A stretch of 64,000 nucleotides of DNA from Naegleria gruberi. Lineage: Eukaryota. Positions 17,462 through 41,593 of this stretch are shown here, one piece after another. The notes beneath the pieces were generated by a model that did no database searches, had not been told where the DNA came from, and saw only the letters and a program-made list of their open reading frames with translations. The translations under genes were made by a program, and so were the position numbers. The stretch lies in the NCBI GenBank assembly GCA_000004985.1, contig GG738856.1; one strand, 5' to 3'. The number at the start of each line of letters is the position of its first letter. Within the stretch, counting starts at the first letter, position 1.

Positions 17462-18197
17462 TCATTGTACTTTTACTCCAAACACCAACTTGTAAATAAT
17501 ATTACTGAATGTTTGAACATCAAGAAAACAATACAACCCTCTCTAGAGAATTAGTAGTTCGTTAAAGAATGGGAAAATAGCACAATAAAATCGCTTAAAA
17601 TGTTTGACAGTTCACTTTACATTTGACATTTTTCTAAATCCAATCCCTGACACAATCAGTCTTTTATGTTATCTTTTTCAATTATGGAATTTTATGCTTT
17701 TGAAATATTGTAATCATGTAACCATCATTTGTAGACTCGACAAGGTACATCATTTTACTGTAGAAACATTATTGTAATCTCTTCTTTGTTTGAGGTTGTT
17801 GAAAATCATAATGACATATGTTTTTGATTTCTTGTGACAGATCCACTTATCAAAACCTCAACATCTGCTAGGGGGATCTAGAGATTGTTATCGTATTATC
17901 TTGGCATGTACTTATTCGAAGACTTCTCACCCTTAGTAGAAATCTAAAAATACAATCTTTACCTTCAAAAATTACAACTGTTGAGGTTGTATGATATCCA
18001 AGAACTTGGCAGAAAAAACTACTCGAAAAAATGACTAAAGTTCAACCTGTTCATGATGACAATAAGAAGGTAAGTTTCAAAACAACTTTACTAACATTCA
18101 AATCAAGCAAAATAAAAATGAAGATTTGCTTCTCTTAGATGGTGAAAAGGAAAAGCTTTGCGAAAGAAAGAAAATCATTCTCAAATCTTGCATTTCC

Positions 18198-20537
18198 ATG
18201 AGATTAATCATTACCTTATTAATCATTCTCCTCTTGACGGCATGCTCCATCCTTACCTGGTTAGCTTCCTTCATTGGATCTATAACTGCCTTAGAAGAAT
18301 TATCCCAGAATCTTGTTTCTAGAGTTGGAGAGAAGGCCATTACTTACATTGATAGTCAACTGGATCCTGTTGTGAAACTTTCATCAAGTTTTGCAGCTGA
18401 CATTACCAACGGATCAATTTCTCTTCAACCCTCCATTAGCAACTTGTATCAAAAAGCAACAATCTACAAAGCATCAAGTGTTGGTGTTTTCTATTCACAA
18501 AGTTTGTACTCTGTTGTTTGGGCAGGTGTTTATCCGAATGAAGTATTGACCTATTCAGAGGCAATTCCTGGTCTAGTTTATTGGAAATTGGATGCTAGCA
18601 ATGGAAATGTGGTCTCAGTGTTCAAAAATACGTCTACTATTCCTTTTTCAATCACTTCTCAAGCGTTCTGGGCTGGAAGTTTTGCATTATTCAACTCAAC
18701 TGGTGCTGAAACGATTCTTGGAGCTCCGTATGTGGTAATCAATTCAGGAGTAGTGATTTATTGTTCTACAAAGATTTACGATCCAGTATTGATGGTTCAA
18801 GGAACAAAAAAAGTTATTGGAATTGCAAAAGTCAACTTGACCTTAAAGACCGTTCAGGATTTTTTACAGAAATTGTCCGTGATTGGAAATGGATACATAA
18901 TATTATCAGAAACGAATAACAATGTGATCGGAGCTTCTATTAACTCAACTGCAACTGATGGAGTGTCTAGAATTTCCTTATTTGACCTTACTGATAAAAA
19001 CGCTGGTCAACTGATGACAGATCTCAAAAATCAATATGGAGATATGAGCAAAGTTCCATCCTATAGCCAAATAACTAGTAAGGGAGTAGAATATTTCGTT
19101 TCCAAAATGGACTACCAATATCTCAATGTTCGTTGGAATCTGTATATGGTAATTTACAAATCTGATATCCAAAGAGTTACCAATATTAATACTGGTATCT
19201 CAGTTGCTGTTGCAGTTGTAGTTATTGGAGTGGGTATCATTTGTGGTGTCTTTATTGGACATATTGTAACGAAACCTCTCAGATTCCTTGAAGATCAATT
19301 TTCAAAAATCAAAACTTTTGATTTGAATTCTTGTAATTTCATTTCAAGCCAATTCAAAGAAGTTGATAGAATTTATGAGCATTTGTATGATATGGTCACT
19401 TGGCTTAATGAATTCAAGTCCTTCCTCCCAGAGAGTGTCTTTAATCAACTCAAACATATGGAACTAGTTGAAGATTCGAAACAGCACTCAGCAACTATTC
19501 GACAAAGCGTCCATGATTCACAAGCCATGATGTCCAGTGCTCAACTATCTTCCAAGCATTCTGGAAAATCAAGTAATCTCCAATCTGGCTTGGGAGGAAT
19601 TACTTCTGGAGGTTTATTTAAGGTTGGATTATCCACGAATAAGGTAACAATAGTCTGTGTTAAACTATTTGGGTTTTCTAATGAGAATTCCATGCATGAT
19701 TTATCGTTGCTATTCTCAAAGATTGCTTCCTGCCTTTCAAACTTGTCCAAAACTATGCAAGTCACTGATATGAAGATTAATTCTGTCGATGAATTTCAAT
19801 TATGTTTTACAAATGACAAGAAGAAGAAATCAGAATTTTTGGCCTTAGATGCAAGTTTGAAAATTGCAAAGGCATTGAATAATATTACTGGAAAGTCGGG
19901 TCAGAAAATTGATTATTCAATTGGTGTTTGTTCTGATTTGGCAAATATTGGAAATTTGGGAACTAGTTCACTAAGATATTTTTCAATTGTTGGTTCTGTG
20001 GTTGACAATGCCAAGATAATTGCATTATTGGGACATTCTAGTGCTAGCAGAGTTCTTGTGGATGGAAATACTCTGACTAATGTCAAGGAACAATTCGTAT
20101 ACAAACCTGTGGATCGATTGGAAATGGAACTACACTCTAAAAAGACAATTTGTTCGATTTTTGAAGTGATTAGAGAGAATGTTGTTAATCAAGATGAATG
20201 GCTATACGAATTGGATCAATCGAATAGTAATAATAAGTATTTAGAGTTACAATCTATTTTCCATCAACTATTCGAAAGTTCATCATCCATTTCATTCGAA
20301 ACTTTGAATGATTTCCGATCTAAACTTTCCCAATTCATGAATGAACATCCACAAGAAAGTTCAAACATGACCAAGACTTTAGAATTCTTAGAAATGGTTT
20401 TACAATGCTCTTCAGAATCTCAATCCCATGAAATGCTAAATAATTACAAAACTGTTTTGGAGAAACATTTGACCACTCTTTCTAAATACACCTATTCTGA
20501 TTCCGATGTTATTGTAACCAAAATTAAAATTGATTAA
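18198..20537 (+). CDS. Two-TM receptor: an extracellular sensor domain of about 330 aa (Cache-like), a HAMP-like linker, and a class-III nucleotidyl-cyclase homology domain with a divergent active site.
   Basis: TM1 'MRLIITLLIILLLTACSILTWLASFIG' and TM2 'ISVAVAVVVIGVGIICGVFIGHIV'. The cyclase-like blocks are 'VTIVCVKLFGFSN' (aligning with the F-x-D-I-x-G-F-T metal site, but K replaces the Asp) and 'IGVCSDLANIGNLGTSSLRYFSIVGSVVDNAKIIALLG' (aligning with IGxHxGxVxxGxxGxxRxxYxxxGDxVNxAxRxE). The first ATG in frame is at 18198. The ATG at 18030 belongs to a short uORF that ends in TAA. Confidence 0.55.
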   Translation: MRLIITLLIILLLTACSILTWLASFIGSITALEELSQNLVSRVGEKAITYIDSQLDPVVKLSSSFAADITNGSISLQPSISNLYQKATIYKASSVGVFYSQSLYSVVWAGVYPNEVLTYSEAIPGLVYWKLDASNGNVVSVFKNTSTIPFSITSQAFWAGSFALFNSTGAETILGAPYVVINSGVVIYCSTKIYDPVLMVQGTKKVIGIAKVNLTLKTVQDFLQKLSVIGNGYIILSETNNNVIGASINSTATDGVSRISLFDLTDKNAGQLMTDLKNQYGDMSKVPSYSQITSKGVEYFVSKMDYQYLNVRWNLYMVIYKSDIQRVTNINTGISVAVAVVVIGVGIICGVFIGHIVTKPLRFLEDQFSKIKTFDLNSCNFISSQFKEVDRIYEHLYDMVTWLNEFKSFLPESVFNQLKHMELVEDSKQHSATIRQSVHDSQAMMSSAQLSSKHSGKSSNLQSGLGGITSGGLFKVGLSTNKVTIVCVKLFGFSNENSMHDLSLLFSKIASCLSNLSKTMQVTDMKINSVDEFQLCFTNDKKKKSEFLALDASLKIAKALNNITGKSGQKIDYSIGVCSDLANIGNLGTSSLRYFSIVGSVVDNAKIIALLGHSSASRVLVDGNTLTNVKEQFVYKPVDRLEMELHSKKTICSIFEVIRENVVNQDEWLYELDQSNSNNKYLELQSIFHQLFESSSSISFETLNDFRSKLSQFMNEHPQESSNMTKTLEFLEMVLQCSSESQSHEMLNNYKTVLEKHLTTLSKYTYSDSDVIVTKIKID

Positions 20538-20597: not shown

Positions 20598-23500
20598 TTA
20601 ATTGTCCACAATCCTTTCATTCCATTCCTCAATCTTTTGTAAAATTTCATTAATGTTTGGTCTTTCCTTTGGGTCATGACTCCATGATTGTCTAATGAGT
20701 AAAGTCATTTCAAAAATGATATCCGAGTGGTAGTTCAACACTTCGTTCCTAGGTAGGAATGTTTCACACCAAGTTTGACATTCCTCTGCAGTAGAAAATG
20801 GAATGACAGGTCTCAATCCTTCTTCACAAACACTCTTATGGAATTGATATGAGCTATTAAATACATTTGGTTTGGATAATTTCAATTTTTGAAGAGCTCT
20901 TGCGTCCATACTTTGATATGGTTCTGTTATTTCGAATATTAATTGCCACATTACAATAGCCAAACTGTAAATATCAATTGATCGAGCATCATTTCTACCA
21001 ATATCTCCCGAAAAGAGTTCAGGACTGTTTCACCACCATATTATTGATATTGCACAATTATAAATCCATTCAGAAAAAAACTAACCTCATATAATTACTC
21101 GTTCCAATATGATTGGTGAGGGCTGAAATGCTGTGAGAAGACAAGACTCTTCCCAATCCAAAATCACACAACTTGGCAGTTCCATTCTTGTCTAAAAGAA
21201 TATTTGCTGGTTTCAAATCTCTGAATAATTGTGGACTAATTAAAAAATACTGAGATAGATCAAACATACCTGTGGACAATAAAGTTCGGCTCCAAACAAT
21301 GTAGATAATTGATTCCACTGGCTACATTGAGTAGAATGGACAGTTTCAGTTGAAGTGAACACTTCAATTGGTGTAATTCCAAGCTTCTAATCAAGGATTC
21401 CAAACTCTTATCCATATATTCCATTGCAATAAACCTCTTTGTGGGTGTTGATGAAATACCATAAAAATTGATAATGTTGGGATGTCTCAATTTGGACAAT
21501 AGAATGGCTTCAAATTTGAAATCATCTTCTGAAATATTAATATTATTCAAGTCAAATACTTTGACAGCAATAATAATTCCATTATATTTGGTTGAAAAGA
21601 CACTTCCCATTCCTCCTTCTCCAAGTCTCTGAGTTAAAAATGGTAAATTAGAACTAAGAATATGAATAACGTACCTTAATTGGTTTGTCCATGTGTAACA
21701 GCTCAACAGGAATAATAAAATTCTGCTCCTCCTCACTGGTTGGCTTGGATCCAGAGCCATTACTTGTATATTCCATTTCAGATTGAGATAAGAGTCTTTG
21801 ATCTAAAGTGAGGTCAGTATCATTTATCCTCTTTTGCTTTCTGTACTTCCTTGTGATGAAAATCAAGACAACTGAAATGATTGCAATGACCAATGCAAAA
21901 AATCCTATCAGTCCAAGAACAATTCCCAACATTAAATTGCTGTATTCACATCTCTCTCCACCAAAGCCTTCCTTACATTCGCACATATCATGCTTTACAC
22001 AATTTCCATTACGATTGCAAGCTTCAGATCCAGATATTCCAAAACAAATTGCAATTTGACATGAAACACCTGTATATCCAATACTACAATTACAATTATT
22101 TGGAGAAATACAAGTTCCATTAGAAGAACAAACAGACTGGCTTTCACTGGAAATCCCATTACAAATAGGATATTGACATTGAGAGCCAGAAAATCCAGCA
22201 TGGCACACACACTTGTTATATTCAACACACGTTCCATTTCCGCCATTGCACGAAGTGCTTTCATTTGAAGCAATGCCAAAGCATGTGGCTATACATTCTG
22301 TCATTGTCATACTAAGGACATACCCATCTTTGCAGTAGGGTTTCATCTTGTATATGACATTATATTTGGAATCTGAAATGTAGATTTCACCTTTTCCATC
22401 ATTGGAAAATGTAATACCTTCAGGAATTCCCAATGGAGCACTCACTGCTGACAATTCCATATTAGAATAGTATAGACCTCCATAGGATGTGTCTGTTCCA
22501 TTTCCAGCAATTGTTGTAATTATTCCATCTTTGATTCTTCTAATTCTACCATTGTTAGAATCTGAGAAAATGATATCCTCGTATGGAGGAATGAGCTTTA
22601 AAAATGTTGGACTGTTAAGTTGGGCGTTTTTAGCAGGTAGTCCATCTCCACTAAATCCCTTAATACCTGTTCCAGCCAATGTTGAAATTGTTCCATTTTT
22701 GTAAACTATTCTAATTCGGTGATTGTTTCGGTCAGAAAATATGATGTCCCCTGTGATTTTTGAATAAGCAATACCAGATGGGTAGGCCAAAGATGTTTGT
22801 AATGAATTAATATCATCTGCATAGAATCCATATCCACCATTTCCAGCGATTGTGTGCACAATTCCATTTCTAATCATCCTAATCATGTTATTCGTTACAT
22901 CAGTGAAATAAATGTCATTATTTGGTGCGATGGTCAATCCAAGACAATTTCCAATAGCATTTTCAGAAGGACCTAAATCTCCAACTCCTCCAGCAAGTAT
23001 TTCTATTGTCTTTTTCATAGTATAGACTCGAATTTTATCATTTCTAGTATCGGCCACTAGTACCATCTTCTCCTCTAAGGAATTTGCTACTGCATGAACA
23101 GACATAGGCCCATTAATTTTGGCAGTAAGTGCTGAATCGCCATCTCCCTCAAATCCAGGAAATCCTGTCTGGCTAACAACTGTTCTAATGTTGAAATCAG
23201 TTGTTGAAATGGCCCTAATCTTATTGTTAAATGTATCAGCTTCAAGAAATGTTAATTATTGAATGGATAGAAAAACAGAACTTACCAACATAAATGTCTG
23301 AATACCCATAACTGACACTGTGAGGATAAAAGAGCTGACTTCTGATAGCTGGACCTTCATCACCACTACTTCCATCAATTCCTGTTCCTGCAAGTGTTTT
23401 TACTGTTACATCTGTAATCACTCTAATTCTATGATTATTTGTATCCTTTTAGTAACTTGTTAATGTTTCCAATATGTGATAAAACTTACAGCAACAATTA

Positions 23501-39652: not shown

Positions 39653-41593
39653 ATGACCTCCAACAATTATTGTAAATTAACCATCATGATGTTTTTCATG
39701 ATGATATTATTCATGGCCTCTCTTTCCCATGCCTACTCTCCAACCACCGAAACTGATCCAGATGAATACGATACTCAATTCTCCCTCTCTCTAGTTTCGA
39801 ATACTTTAGGTTCTATTGAACCAGGTCCAGTAACCAGATATCCAGATGCCTACGAAAAGGCCACAAGTTTCTTCAGAAATCAATATGGTTTAGATATTTC
39901 TGCTGATGGATCTCGTCTCCCAGTTGGTGCTCAACTCGTTACTGGTTCTGCCTCAGCTTACGTTATGAATTATGCCAAAGTTCGTGGTTATCCAATTTTG
40001 GCAGGTTCACAAGATGTTGGAGTTCATGATGATACTATTAGTATTGTCCTTTCTCAACCAGCTGTTGTTCATGGAGCTTATGGTGGTAAGAATGGAACTT
40101 TTGTCGATGGAAATTCTGTTTTAATTTTTGGTTTTTATACTTTCTTTTGGAAAGTTAATGGAACTTCAGTTTTTCCAAGATCTACCTTTGCAGGAATGAT
40201 GCCAATGAAGATTGGTCCAGATGGTTCAATGGTTGTTGATTGTGAATTGACTTCTAATATATTTGGAAAGGGTATGGCTAGAGGAATTATGCTCATTAGA
40301 ATTAATCCTCTAACTGGTCAACCTTACACAACCATTGTTAGTTCACATACTTACCAAATGTCAAAGACTGATACATCTCCAAAATGTGCTGTATTGACAA
40401 CTGAAAAGGACATTCACAATGATGACTTTGTTGTCAAGTGGAATAATGTCTTGTTGAGCGTCATTCGTGATTTGAAAGTTGCTCCACCAATTGCCTCAAG
40501 ACAAATGGCCATTCTTCACACTGCCATTGATGATGCCCTTGGTAATTGCAGAAGATTGAGATATACTTCTAGAAAGTGTACTCGTGCTACTTTGGTTTCT
40601 GTTATTTCATATGCTGCTCATCGTGTCTTGTCCAATTTGTATCCAGCTCAAATTGATTGTTTCAATGGAGCTTTGAAGAGAGCTTTGGAATGTAATGAAT
40701 GTAAGACTGTTCCTAGAACTGAATTGGTTGCCATCGGTAAATCAGGTTCTTTGGCAGCTGACAGAGTTTTGAGATGTAGAGATAATGATGGTAGTACTGA
40801 TTTTGTTGATTATAATTTCTCTAATGGACCAATGTCTTATCAATCCCATGCTCCAAACTATGTCAGAGTTCCATTGTTACCTCAATGGCCAAATGTTGAA
40901 CCATTTGGTGTTCAAGATGTTGATTCTTTCGATCAAGGTCCTCCACCACAAATTGGAACTCCTGCATTCGAAAGTTCATACGATGAAGTTTTCACATATG
41001 GTAAGAATGATTCTAGTGTGAGAACATTTGAACAACGTAGAATTGCCTTGTTCTGGGCTGATAATGCTGGTACAAGTACTCCACCAGGTCACTGGAATAT
41101 CATTTTACAATCCATCATTAGAAAGATGAATATTGTTGATACTTTCAAGATTTCTGGCATGTTTAAGGTTTTGACTAGTTCATTGGCTGATGCTGCTATC
41201 GTCTGTTGGTATCATAAATACAAGTATGATGCCTTCCGTCCAGTTACTGCCATTGCCAACAGAAATAGAAATACTAATTGGTTCCCATTTTTGGCAACTC
41301 CTCCATTCCCAGAATATTCTTCAGGACACTCAACATTTTCTGCTGCAGGTGCCAGAGCTTTAAGTTTATTATTGGGAACTGATGATATTTCCTTTGAAAC
41401 CATTTCTGAAGGTTATGTTCATCATGTGAGACAGTTCAGTAAATTGTCAGATGCTGCAAAAGAAGCTGGTAAATCAAGAATCTATGGTGGTATTCACTTT
41501 GAATATGCCAACCAAGCTGGTTATACTTCAGGTGTTGCTGTTGCCAATGCTGTTTACAATCAGTTGTGTAGAAATGGTTCATGTCTCGTATAA
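39653..41593 (+). CDS. Secreted vanadium-dependent haloperoxidase / PAP2 acid-phosphatase superfamily enzyme with an N-terminal accessory domain.
   Basis: Signal peptide 'MMFFMMILFMASLSHA'. Complete PAP2/V-HPO tripartite motif: 'KYKYDAFRP' (KX6RP), 'YSSGHS' (PSGH) and 'SRIYGGIHFEYANQAG' (SRX5H..., which resembles the 'RIFLGVHWRFD' of fungal V-chloroperoxidase). The spacing between motifs is canonical. Confidence 0.75.
   Translation: MTSNNYCKLTIMMFFMMILFMASLSHAYSPTTETDPDEYDTQFSLSLVSNTLGSIEPGPVTRYPDAYEKATSFFRNQYGLDISADGSRLPVGAQLVTGSASAYVMNYAKVRGYPILAGSQDVGVHDDTISIVLSQPAVVHGAYGGKNGTFVDGNSVLIFGFYTFFWKVNGTSVFPRSTFAGMMPMKIGPDGSMVVDCELTSNIFGKGMARGIMLIRINPLTGQPYTTIVSSHTYQMSKTDTSPKCAVLTTEKDIHNDDFVVKWNNVLLSVIRDLKVAPPIASRQMAILHTAIDDALGNCRRLRYTSRKCTRATLVSVISYAAHRVLSNLYPAQIDCFNGALKRALECNECKTVPRTELVAIGKSGSLAADRVLRCRDNDGSTDFVDYNFSNGPMSYQSHAPNYVRVPLLPQWPNVEPFGVQDVDSFDQGPPPQIGTPAFESSYDEVFTYGKNDSSVRTFEQRRIALFWADNAGTSTPPGHWNIILQSIIRKMNIVDTFKISGMFKVLTSSLADAAIVCWYHKYKYDAFRPVTAIANRNRNTNWFPFLATPPFPEYSSGHSTFSAAGARALSLLLGTDDISFETISEGYVHHVRQFSKLSDAAKEAGKSRIYGGIHFEYANQAGYTSGVAVANAVYNQLCRNGSCLV

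What the first reader, a model, noticed from the sequence alone, without database searches (positions are those of the whole stretch)
18030..20537. Sensor-HAMP receptor with a degenerate class-III cyclase homology domain and a 5' uORF
The protein has a TM helix, an extracellular domain of about 330 aa, a second TM helix and a HAMP-like linker. It ends in a domain matching the class-III adenylyl/guanylyl cyclase core. The first metal-binding Asp is replaced ('VCVKLFGFSN' instead of FADIVGFT). The transition-state Asn-x-x-x-Arg region reads 'DNAKI'. It may be a catalytically inactive cyclase used as a dimerisation or regulatory module, or an unusual active variant. Upstream, the ATG at 18030 opens an 11-codon uORF (MTKVQPVHDDK*) that overlaps a GTAAGT motif. 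This suggests translational control or a 5'UTR intron.
Basis: partly seen in the sequence, partly recalled or inferred. Interest (0 to 1): 0.6.

Follow-up and report, generated by a model that had tools for sequence, protein, structure and literature searches.

The report
Receptor with a dead cyclase domain
This Naegleria gruberi gene encodes a membrane receptor with a bacterial-type double-Cache sensor outside the cell and, inside, a domain with the fold of a cAMP/cGMP-making enzyme that has lost nearly every catalytic residue; the supposed upstream mini-ORF is really the gene's first coding exon.

Summary
The window is Naegleria gruberi DNA, and the gene is real.

Of eight canonical catalytic positions, only the second metal Asp survives. 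The first Asp is Lys, the transition-state Asn is Asp, and the Arg is Ile. Across 139 relatives, these are among the least conserved columns of the domain. Only one relative (P0079) is canonical.

The family also shares:
- a ~58-aa disordered Ser-rich linker;
- a DEW[ML]YEL motif;
- a ~90-aa helical tail.

The best reading is therefore a receptor pseudo-cyclase.

The uORF claim is wrong. The ATG is at 18031, and there is no stop after 11 codons. MTKVQPV matches a family-wide N-terminal motif, so this is coding exon 1. It is most likely joined by a 38-nt intron (18070-18107). The public 779-aa model is N-terminally truncated.

The parts
18031..18069 (+). Coding exon 1 (MTKVQPVHDDNKK).
   Evidence: The motif sits at the extreme N-terminus of at least 33 relatives; P0042 starts MTKVQPVLGEE.
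18070..18107 (+). Proposed 38-nt phase-0 intron: GTAAGT donor, TACTAAC branch-like site at 18089-18095, AG acceptor at 18106-18107.
   Evidence: With the GTAAGT donor, this is the only GT-AG pairing that restores the frame and keeps the conserved acidic/LL block encoded at 18117-18137. There is no RNA evidence, so it is inferred.
18108..20537 (+). Exon 2, including the TAA stop. The public model P0001 starts only at the ATG at 18198.
18201..18278 (+). Transmembrane helix 1 (RLIITLLIILLLTACSILTWLASFIG).
   Evidence: Kyte-Doolittle scan; helix in the AF2 model.
18279..19193 (+). Extracellular double-Cache (dCache) sensor domain, about 305 aa.
19194..19268 (+). Transmembrane helix 2 (GISVAVAVVVIGVGIICGVFIGHIV).
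19269..19451 (+). HAMP-like two-helix linker (TKPLRFLE...EVDRIYEHLYDM...), ending in the cyclase-type 'FLPESVFNQL' helix.
   Evidence: hhalign pairs it, in register, only with the Pfam-annotated HAMP of the canonical dCache-HAMP-cyclase P0163 (E 0.0033, probability 9.7%). Af1503 HAMP hits are sub-threshold at E about 1. The evidence is weak.
19452..19610 (+). Ser-rich, low-complexity, predicted-disordered linker inserted between the FLPE helix and the cyclase-like core.
   Evidence: pLDDT is below 50 for aa 406-476. The family median length is about 58 aa. The linker is absent from the canonical relative P0079.
19611..20177 (+). Degenerate class III cyclase homology domain (pseudo-CHD).
   Evidence: for fold and homology; for the loss of catalytic residues.
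19659..19661 (+). Lys488, at the position of the first metal-binding Asp (the K in VCVKLFGF).
   Evidence: hmmalign against CyaB plus six canonical controls.
20004..20018 (+). 'DNAKI', in place of canonical N-x-A-x-R: Asn to Asp603, Arg to Ile607.
   Evidence: (HMMER alignment to ADCY10).
20193..20213 (+). DEWLYEL, the family signature motif just after the last CHD strand.
   Evidence: A DEW-like motif occurs in 101 of 140 family sequences. E667 and W668 are at least 90% conserved.
20214..20534 (+). C-terminal helical tail of about 100 aa; four helices, possibly TPR-like.
   Evidence: AF2 helices at 668-765. Only weak repeat-protein matches.

Best explanation
The gene encodes a bitopic-loop receptor, which I infer to be homodimeric.

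Domain order:
1. A short cytoplasmic N-terminus of about 43 aa carrying a conserved M-x-K-V-x-P start.
2. TM1.
3. An extracellular dCache ligand-binding domain.
4. TM2.
5. A HAMP-like linker ending in the cyclase-type 'FLPE' helix.
6. A disordered Ser-rich linker of about 55 aa.
7. A class III cyclase homology domain that keeps the fold but has lost the catalytic machinery.
8. A DEWLYEL motif.
9. A helical tail of about 100 aa.

Shown: the domain identities, and the absence of seven of the eight canonical catalytic residues. Those positions are also evolutionarily unconstrained across the family.

Inferred:
- The protein does not make cAMP or cGMP.
- It cannot complement a canonical partner in either half-site role.
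- It descends from an active dCache-HAMP-cyclase receptor of the P0079 type.
- Ligand binding at the dCache domain is relayed through TM2 and the HAMP-like linker.
- The dead CHD, DEW motif and tail act as a non-catalytic output, through dimer rearrangement, partner recruitment, or possibly nucleotide binding. The Ser-rich linker is a likely site of regulation.

The ATG at 18031 is the true start codon, and a short intron lies within the coding sequence.
For: Organism and family.

CHD homology:
- The profile of the 10 closest C-terminal domains hits only class III cyclases in the PDB (30 of 30, best E 3.9e-6).
- The broader-family profile hits CyaB 3r5g at E 1.2e-24 over the whole domain.
- PF00211 is detected in 30 of 68 broader members, best E 2.5e-10.
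- Foldseek gives TM 0.7-0.83 at E about 1e-10.

Loss of catalysis:
- In an alignment where CyaB and six Pfam-positive cyclases show D/K/D/[RK]/[TD]/N/R, this protein shows K/S/D/L/S/D/I, with Glu at the Lys1065-equivalent position.
- 125 of 139 relatives keep at most 1 of 6 key residues; only P0079 keeps all.
- The catalytic columns rank 75-163 of 179 by conservation, whereas the structural glycines (GNxG) are about 99% conserved.
- The residue roles come from Table 1 of PMC6005667.

dCache.

The conserved cassette is attached to different sensors (ankyrin+dCache, NIT, PBP-like, PDC), as expected of an output module.

The canonical relative P0079 shares the N-terminal motif, dCache, HAMP and helical tail, but lacks the linker and the DEW motif.

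Start codon and intron.
Against: - No biochemical data exist. Inactivity is inferred from sequence alone, and some pseudoenzymes have relocated catalytic residues.
- The second metal Asp is retained in about 39% of the family.
- A conserved Arg (R593) sits one residue after the canonical phosphate-Arg column and could be its shifted equivalent.
- About half the family has Lys, Arg or His at the first metal position. This could be a functional replacement rather than decay.
- The HAMP assignment is statistically weak.
- The tail has no significant fold assignment.
- A disordered linker argues against rigid HAMP-to-CHD coupling, so the signalling route is unclear.
- The 38-nt intron is shorter than the two neighbouring introns (49 and 62 nt) and has no transcript support.
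Confidence: 0.7

Rival explanations
1. It is an unusual but active nucleotidyl cyclase or related nucleotidyl transferase. The site would be rebuilt from non-canonical residues, for example Lys488 replacing metal A, with the retained Asp531 and Arg593.
For: - The fold is intact and under selection.
- The second Asp is retained here and in about 39% of relatives.
- Basic residues are frequent at the first metal position.
- A conserved Arg lies next to the phosphate-Arg column.
- Several databases name relatives 'adenylate cyclase'.
Against: - No alternative residue is conserved at any catalytic column. Each column is highly variable: the top residue reaches only 17-38%, and information content is 0.56-1.45 bits against a median of 1.19.
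- The phosphate-binding loop (F-x-D-I-x-G-F-T) is not conserved in the family.
- The transition-state Asn and Arg are both lost.
Confidence: 0.08
2. It is a regulatory partner that heterodimerises with catalytically competent cyclase receptors. It would either poison them as a dominant negative or tune them through a pseudo-symmetric site.
For: - CHDs are obligate dimers, and heterodimers with one degenerate site are the rule in tmAC, sGC and sAC (Table 1 of PMC6005667).
- The closest-family profile ranks the sAC C2 domain first.
- A canonical relative with the same sensor and tail exists (P0079).
Against: - The protein supplies neither half-site. It lacks the first Asp and also Lys, Asn and Arg, so any heterodimer would have no functional site.
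- The pseudo-form vastly outnumbers the single canonical relative among the best 150 hits.
- P0079 comes from a metagenome contig, not demonstrably from Naegleria.
- The family has its own conserved additions (DEW motif, linker), which points to an autonomous role.
Confidence: 0.12
3. The ATG at 18031 opens a regulatory uORF in the leader, and the protein starts at Met 18198. If the 69-nt intron 18070-18138 is used, the spliced uORF (33 codons) ends at a TGA overlapping the main ATG (ATGA at 18198-18201), a termination-reinitiation arrangement.
For: - The acceptor TTTGCTTCTCTTAG at 18138 has the best pyrimidine tract.
- A length of 69 nt is closer to the neighbouring introns of 49 and 62 nt.
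- That splice leaves the 18031 ORF out of frame, with its stop overlapping the ATG at 18198.
- The public model starts at 18198.
Against: - The exon-1 peptide carries the family's conserved N-terminal motif.
- The main frame is open from 18066 and encodes the conserved acidic-LL and basic juxtamembrane blocks upstream of Met 18198.
- The 69-nt intron would delete the LL block.
- The N. lovaniensis orthologue encodes the same N-terminus without interruption.
- The 11-codon uORF as described does not exist.
Confidence: 0.1

Closest known systems
Canonical dCache-HAMP-class III adenylyl cyclase receptors. Examples: metagenomic P0163 (Pfam HAMP + dCache_1 + Guanylate_cyc) and M. tuberculosis Rv2435c, cited in PMC4822843.
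   Same: Same order of parts: TM, dCache sensor, TM, HAMP, cyclase homology domain. Same folds.
   Different: Those proteins keep D/K/D/[RK]/T/N/R and pass Pfam thresholds. They have no Ser-rich linker, no DEW motif and no M-x-K-V-x-P start. This protein has lost seven of eight catalytic residues.
P0079, an unnamed 752-aa protein from a metagenome contig. It is the only canonical cyclase among the 139 relatives analysed.
   Same: N-terminal motif (MQLKNITPV), TM, dCache, TM, HAMP, 'VPAEV' helix, CHD, and a helical tail with the same pattern.
   Different: It has a full catalytic set (DKDRTNR). The CHD follows the VPAEV helix after about 20 aa with no disordered linker, and it lacks the DEWMYEL motif. 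It looks like the active ancestral form.
Degenerate halves of heterodimeric cyclases: sAC/ADCY10 C2, tmAC C2, sGC beta.
   Same: A CHD fold lacking the metal-binding aspartates. sAC C2 is the top sequence hit of the closest-family profile.
   Different: Those domains retain the complementary Lys/Glu, Asn and Arg, and pair with a domain that supplies the aspartates (Table 1 of PMC6005667). This protein lacks both sets.
Class III adenylyl cyclase-like ATP-binding protein of P. aeruginosa (PDB 6yii).
   Different: It is a soluble bacterial transcriptional regulator, with no receptor architecture. [quoted passage not shown] Whether the Naegleria domain binds ATP is untested.
Receptor pseudokinases such as HER3 and PTK7 (analogy only).
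   Same: A ligand-binding ectodomain coupled to an enzyme-fold domain that has lost catalytic residues and signals by interaction.
   Different: An unrelated fold and unrelated lineage. The comparison concerns how the protein may work, not family membership.

Membership tests
Class III nucleotidyl cyclase catalytic domain (PF00211 / CHD) | CHD fold (beta-alpha-alpha-beta-beta-alpha-beta core with dimerisation arm) | tested here: met
Class III nucleotidyl cyclase catalytic domain (PF00211 / CHD) | Sequence match to the Pfam model at the curated threshold | tested here: not met
   No PF00211 hit at E<=1 for this protein. Homology is shown only through family profiles and through relatives that do hit PF00211.
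Class III nucleotidyl cyclase catalytic domain (PF00211 / CHD) | Two metal-binding aspartates (AC-V Asp396 and Asp440) | tested here: not met
   Lys488 and Asp531: the first is lost and the second kept.
Class III nucleotidyl cyclase catalytic domain (PF00211 / CHD) | Base-specifying pair (Lys938/Asp1018, or Glu/Cys in guanylyl cyclases) | tested here: not met
   Ser (or the neighbouring Ile) and Ser596. The family columns are variable.
Class III nucleotidyl cyclase catalytic domain (PF00211 / CHD) | Transition-state and phosphate residues Asn1025, Arg1029, Arg484, Lys1065 | tested here: not met
   Asp603, Ile607, Leu592 (with Arg593 adjacent) and Glu.
Class III nucleotidyl cyclase catalytic domain (PF00211 / CHD) | Cyclase activity (NTP to cNMP + PPi) | not testable with these tools
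   Needs an enzyme assay.
dCache_1 extracellular sensor (PF02743) | Long N-terminal helix plus two stacked PAS-like modules, located between two TM helices | tested here: met
dCache_1 extracellular sensor (PF02743) | Pfam gathering score | tested here: not met
   17.5 bits against a cut-off of 45, E 0.003. Seven of the 12 closest relatives give weak hits, best 8.9e-5.
dCache_1 extracellular sensor (PF02743) | Defined ligand-pocket motif (for example the amino-acid-binding motif) | not tested
   No residue-level pocket comparison was made. The ligand is unknown.
HAMP domain (PF00672) | Two amphipathic helices and a connector directly after TM2, with a conserved Pro at the start of helix 1 and Glu at the start of helix 2 | tested here: inconclusive
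   Pro360 and Glu388 are at least 90% conserved. hhalign aligns the region only to the annotated HAMP of P0163, E 0.0033 but probability 9.7%. PDB Af1503 hits have E 0.7-1.4. Pfam HAMP is found in 2 of 68 relatives. AF2 confidence is low here.
Upstream ORF (uORF) in a 5' leader | A short ORF separate from, and not contributing residues to, the main protein | tested here: not met
   The peptide matches the conserved family N-terminus. An in-frame GT-AG splice joins it to the main ORF. The described 11-codon ORF does not exist.

The most novel reading that the evidence does not exclude
The cassette 'HAMP-like linker, disordered Ser-rich linker, dead CHD, DEW[ML]YEL, helical tail' is a distinct receptor output module that does not make cyclic nucleotides. 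It would be used with many different sensors across Heterolobosea, Euglenozoa and Rhizaria, and would signal by partner recruitment or nucleotide binding. A substantial part of what is annotated as the large 'cyclase' repertoire of Naegleria would then be non-catalytic, and dCache receptors in Naegleria would be far more numerous than the single one reported.
Probability: 0.3. Interest if true: 0.7.

Novelty: new variant of a known kind. Interest (0 to 1): 0.5.

Why it matters
- Naegleria is repeatedly cited for an unusually large cyclase repertoire. One pangenome paper reports at least 81 cyclases (PMC9928731). If a whole subfamily is catalytically dead, that repertoire and the inferred reliance on cAMP/cGMP sensing need re-reading.
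- A previous survey found Cache in only one Naegleria protein (PMC4822843). This family shows that divergent dCache receptors are present in several copies per species.
- The family gives a clean natural series, from active (P0079-like) to dead, for studying how an enzyme output domain becomes a non-catalytic signalling module.
- The relatives in N. fowleri are surface receptors of a lethal pathogen.
- The public gene model for this locus needs a corrected 5' end.

Tried and rejected
- Single-sequence Pfam for PF00211 found nothing, so I moved to profiles.
It breaks the frame and removes a conserved block.
- A second GTAAGT...ACTAAC...AG at 40323-40354 on the minus strand was checked as possible support for very short introns. 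It lies antisense to a 646-aa ORF, so it is a chance match.
- Look-ups of the N. gruberi paralogues P0002, P0013 and P0117, meant for comparing intron positions, returned no record.
- A literature search on Naegleria splice signals found nothing usable. A search for described pseudo-cyclases also found nothing relevant.
- A second word-indexed homologue search with the 131-sequence alignment gave no family census. It did provide canonical control cyclases.
- The tail profile against the PDB gave no significant fold.
- The HAMP profile against the PDB gave only sub-threshold hits.
- The AFDB Foldseek library was unavailable.
- No other CHD-like ORF exists in the window.
- A decaying pseudogene is rejected. 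The ORF is intact for 2.4 kb, and conservation to orthologues and paralogues is 34-48% identity.
Full report
**Origin and gene.**
The window is AT-rich (about 34% GC) and eukaryotic. The 2.4-kb + strand ORF ending at 20537 is 100% identical to a 779-aa 'predicted protein' of Naegleria gruberi. Its closest relatives are 11 proteins from N. gruberi, N. fowleri, N. lovaniensis and Willaertia magna, at 34-48% identity. UniRef labels some of them 'Guanylate cyclase domain-containing'. Neighbouring genes are ordinary eukaryotic genes: a UCH protease, a GPN-type ATP-binding protein, a metallophosphatase and, tail-to-tail, an NHL/EGF/TM/kinase receptor.

**Checking the observation.**
- A hydropathy scan gives exactly two TM segments about 305 aa apart.
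- The 5' details are inaccurate. The ATG is at 18031, the peptide is MTKVQPVHDDNKK..., and there is no stop after 11 codons. Unspliced, the ORF runs 35 codons. GTAAGT is at 18070.

**Is the C-terminal domain a cyclase homology domain?**
Pfam on this protein alone finds no PF00211 match, even at E<=1. Three independent lines overturn it.
1. A profile of the 10 closest C-terminal domains, searched against all PDB sequences, returns 30 hits. All are class III cyclases, with best E 3.9e-6.
2. An exhaustive profile search of 1.84 billion representatives finds 4659 relatives at E<=1e-3 and 99 at E<=1e-30. The profile of 67 of the more distant ones plus this protein hits P. aeruginosa CyaB at E 1.2e-24 over the whole domain. 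Thirty of those 68 sequences hit PF00211 individually, best 2.5e-10.

Homology to class III cyclases is therefore secure.

**Catalytic residues.**
I aligned all 139 family sequences, CyaB and six Pfam-positive control cyclases to one family HMM. The controls read D/K/D/[RK]/[TD]/N/R at the seven classical positions. A seventh sequence in that alignment, P0168 (also PF00211-positive), lacks both aspartates but keeps Asn and Arg, as a C2-type half-site does. The residue roles follow Table 1 of PMC6005667.

| Position | Canonical | This protein |
|---|---|---|
| First metal | Asp | Lys |
| Base | Lys | Ser |
| Second metal | Asp | Asp |
| Phosphate | Arg | Leu (an Arg follows) |
| Base | Thr/Asp | Ser |
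| Ribose | Asn | Asp |
| Phosphate | Arg | Ile |
| Lys1065 equivalent | Lys | Glu |

Across the family, 125 of 139 members keep at most one of six key residues, and only P0079 keeps all. The eight catalytic columns rank 75th to 163rd of 179 CHD columns by conservation. The structural GNxG glycines are about 99% conserved. This is the pattern expected when the fold is retained and the active site is released from selection. Because the protein lacks both the aspartate half-site and the Lys/Asn/Arg half-site, it could not complete a site in a heterodimer either.

**The rest of the protein.**
- *After TM2.* The segment has the HAMP hallmarks, with Pro and Glu at least 90% conserved. hhalign pairs it, in register, only with the annotated HAMP of a canonical dCache-HAMP-cyclase (E 0.0033). 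The probability is low at 9.7%, and the PDB hits are sub-threshold. I therefore call it HAMP-like.
- *FLPESVFNQL helix.* This resembles the helix that precedes the catalytic core in cyclases.
- *Linker.* In this family that helix is separated from the core by a disordered Ser-rich linker. pLDDT is below 50 and the median length is about 58 aa.
- *After the core.* A DEW[ML]YEL motif occurs in 101 of 140 sequences. A helical tail of about 90-100 aa follows, with only weak TPR-like or repeat-like similarity.

**Family context.**
The cassette from the HAMP-like linker to the tail is found behind different N-terminal sensors: dCache, ankyrin+dCache, NIT, PBP-like and PDC. It occurs in Naegleria, Willaertia, Entosiphon, Apiculatamorpha, a transcriptome tagged 'Hpha', and eukaryote-like metagenome contigs. 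That distribution is typical of an output module.

P0079, the one canonical member, has the same N-terminal motif, sensor, HAMP and tail. It has an intact active site, no linker and no DEW motif. It looks like the active ancestral state.

**The 5' end.**
- Homologues begin M-x(0-3)-[KR]-[IVLT]-x-P. At least 33 fit a strict pattern, and P0042 begins MTKVQPVLGEE. The window's ATG-18031 peptide MTKVQPVHDDNKK is therefore the conserved N-terminus, not a uORF.
- The main frame is open from 18066. Upstream of Met 18198 it encodes the conserved acidic-LL and basic juxtamembrane blocks.
- I enumerated all in-frame GT-AG pairs. Only GTAAGT(18070)...AG(18107) uses the strong donor and keeps all conserved blocks. 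It is 38 nt long and contains TACTAAC at 18089-18095.
- The resulting 822-aa N-terminus aligns along its length with orthologues. The N. lovaniensis orthologue has no intron there.
- The intron is short compared with the neighbouring introns of 49 and 62 nt and lacks RNA support. Alternatives remain possible: 65 nt with a weak donor, or 80-101 nt. The 69-nt version breaks the frame.

**Mechanism.**
- *Shown:* domain identities, loss of catalytic residues, and family-wide relaxation at those sites.

**Comparison and novelty.**
The architecture matches canonical dCache-HAMP-cyclases such as P0163, and Rv2435c as cited in PMC4822843. The differences are the dead site, the linker, the DEW motif and the N-terminal motif. 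I found no description of such a receptor pseudo-cyclase family. Existing annotations call relatives 'adenylate cyclase' or leave them unnamed. I rate it a new variant of a known kind, of moderate interest.

Noticed in passing
window 18031-18197: The public N. gruberi gene model (779 aa, starting at 18198) appears N-terminally truncated. It omits exon 1 and about 30 in-frame codons that are conserved in orthologues.
   Followed up: yes
N-termini of P0003, P0005, P0012, P0042, P0072, P0117, P0079 and about 30 others: An extreme N-terminal motif, M-x(0-3)-[KR]-[IVLT]-x-P, is shared by the whole family, including the one canonical cyclase. Its function (sorting, processing or stability signal) is unknown.
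   Followed up: partly
window 20598-23105, minus strand: A convergent neighbour gene encodes an NHL-repeat + EGF + TM + protein kinase receptor. It has two short introns: 49 nt (GTATGT...CAG, about 21220-21268) and 62 nt (GTTAGT...CAG, about 21025-21086).
   Followed up: partly
P0006 (N. gruberi, 1272 aa): This family member is annotated as a fusion with a GT10 fucosyltransferase domain (PF00852). It is probably two adjacent genes merged by the gene caller.
   Followed up: no
window 40323-40354, minus strand: GTAAGTATGTGAACTAAC...AG looks like a tiny intron, but it lies antisense to a 646-aa + strand ORF (39653-41593). It is a chance match, and shows that such signal triplets occur about once per 128 kb of sequence scanned.
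   Followed up: yes
P0117 (N. gruberi NAEGRDRAFT_65007): A distant paralogue of the same pseudo-cyclase family sits on a contig of the same length (602,266 bp) as this gene's scaffold, so probably the same scaffold. It lies outside this window, since no second CHD-like ORF is found in the window.
   Followed up: partly
window 17991-18038: A 15-codon ATG ORF (MISKNLAEKTTRKND*) lies just upstream of, and overlaps, the true start at 18031. If it is transcribed, it would be a genuine small uORF candidate.
   Followed up: no
P0168 (metagenome, 1509 aa): This cyclase-NTPase-TPR protein lacks both metal aspartates (Asn, Ser) but keeps Asn and Arg. That is a C2-like half-site pattern, unlike the complete loss seen in the Naegleria family.
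   Followed up: no
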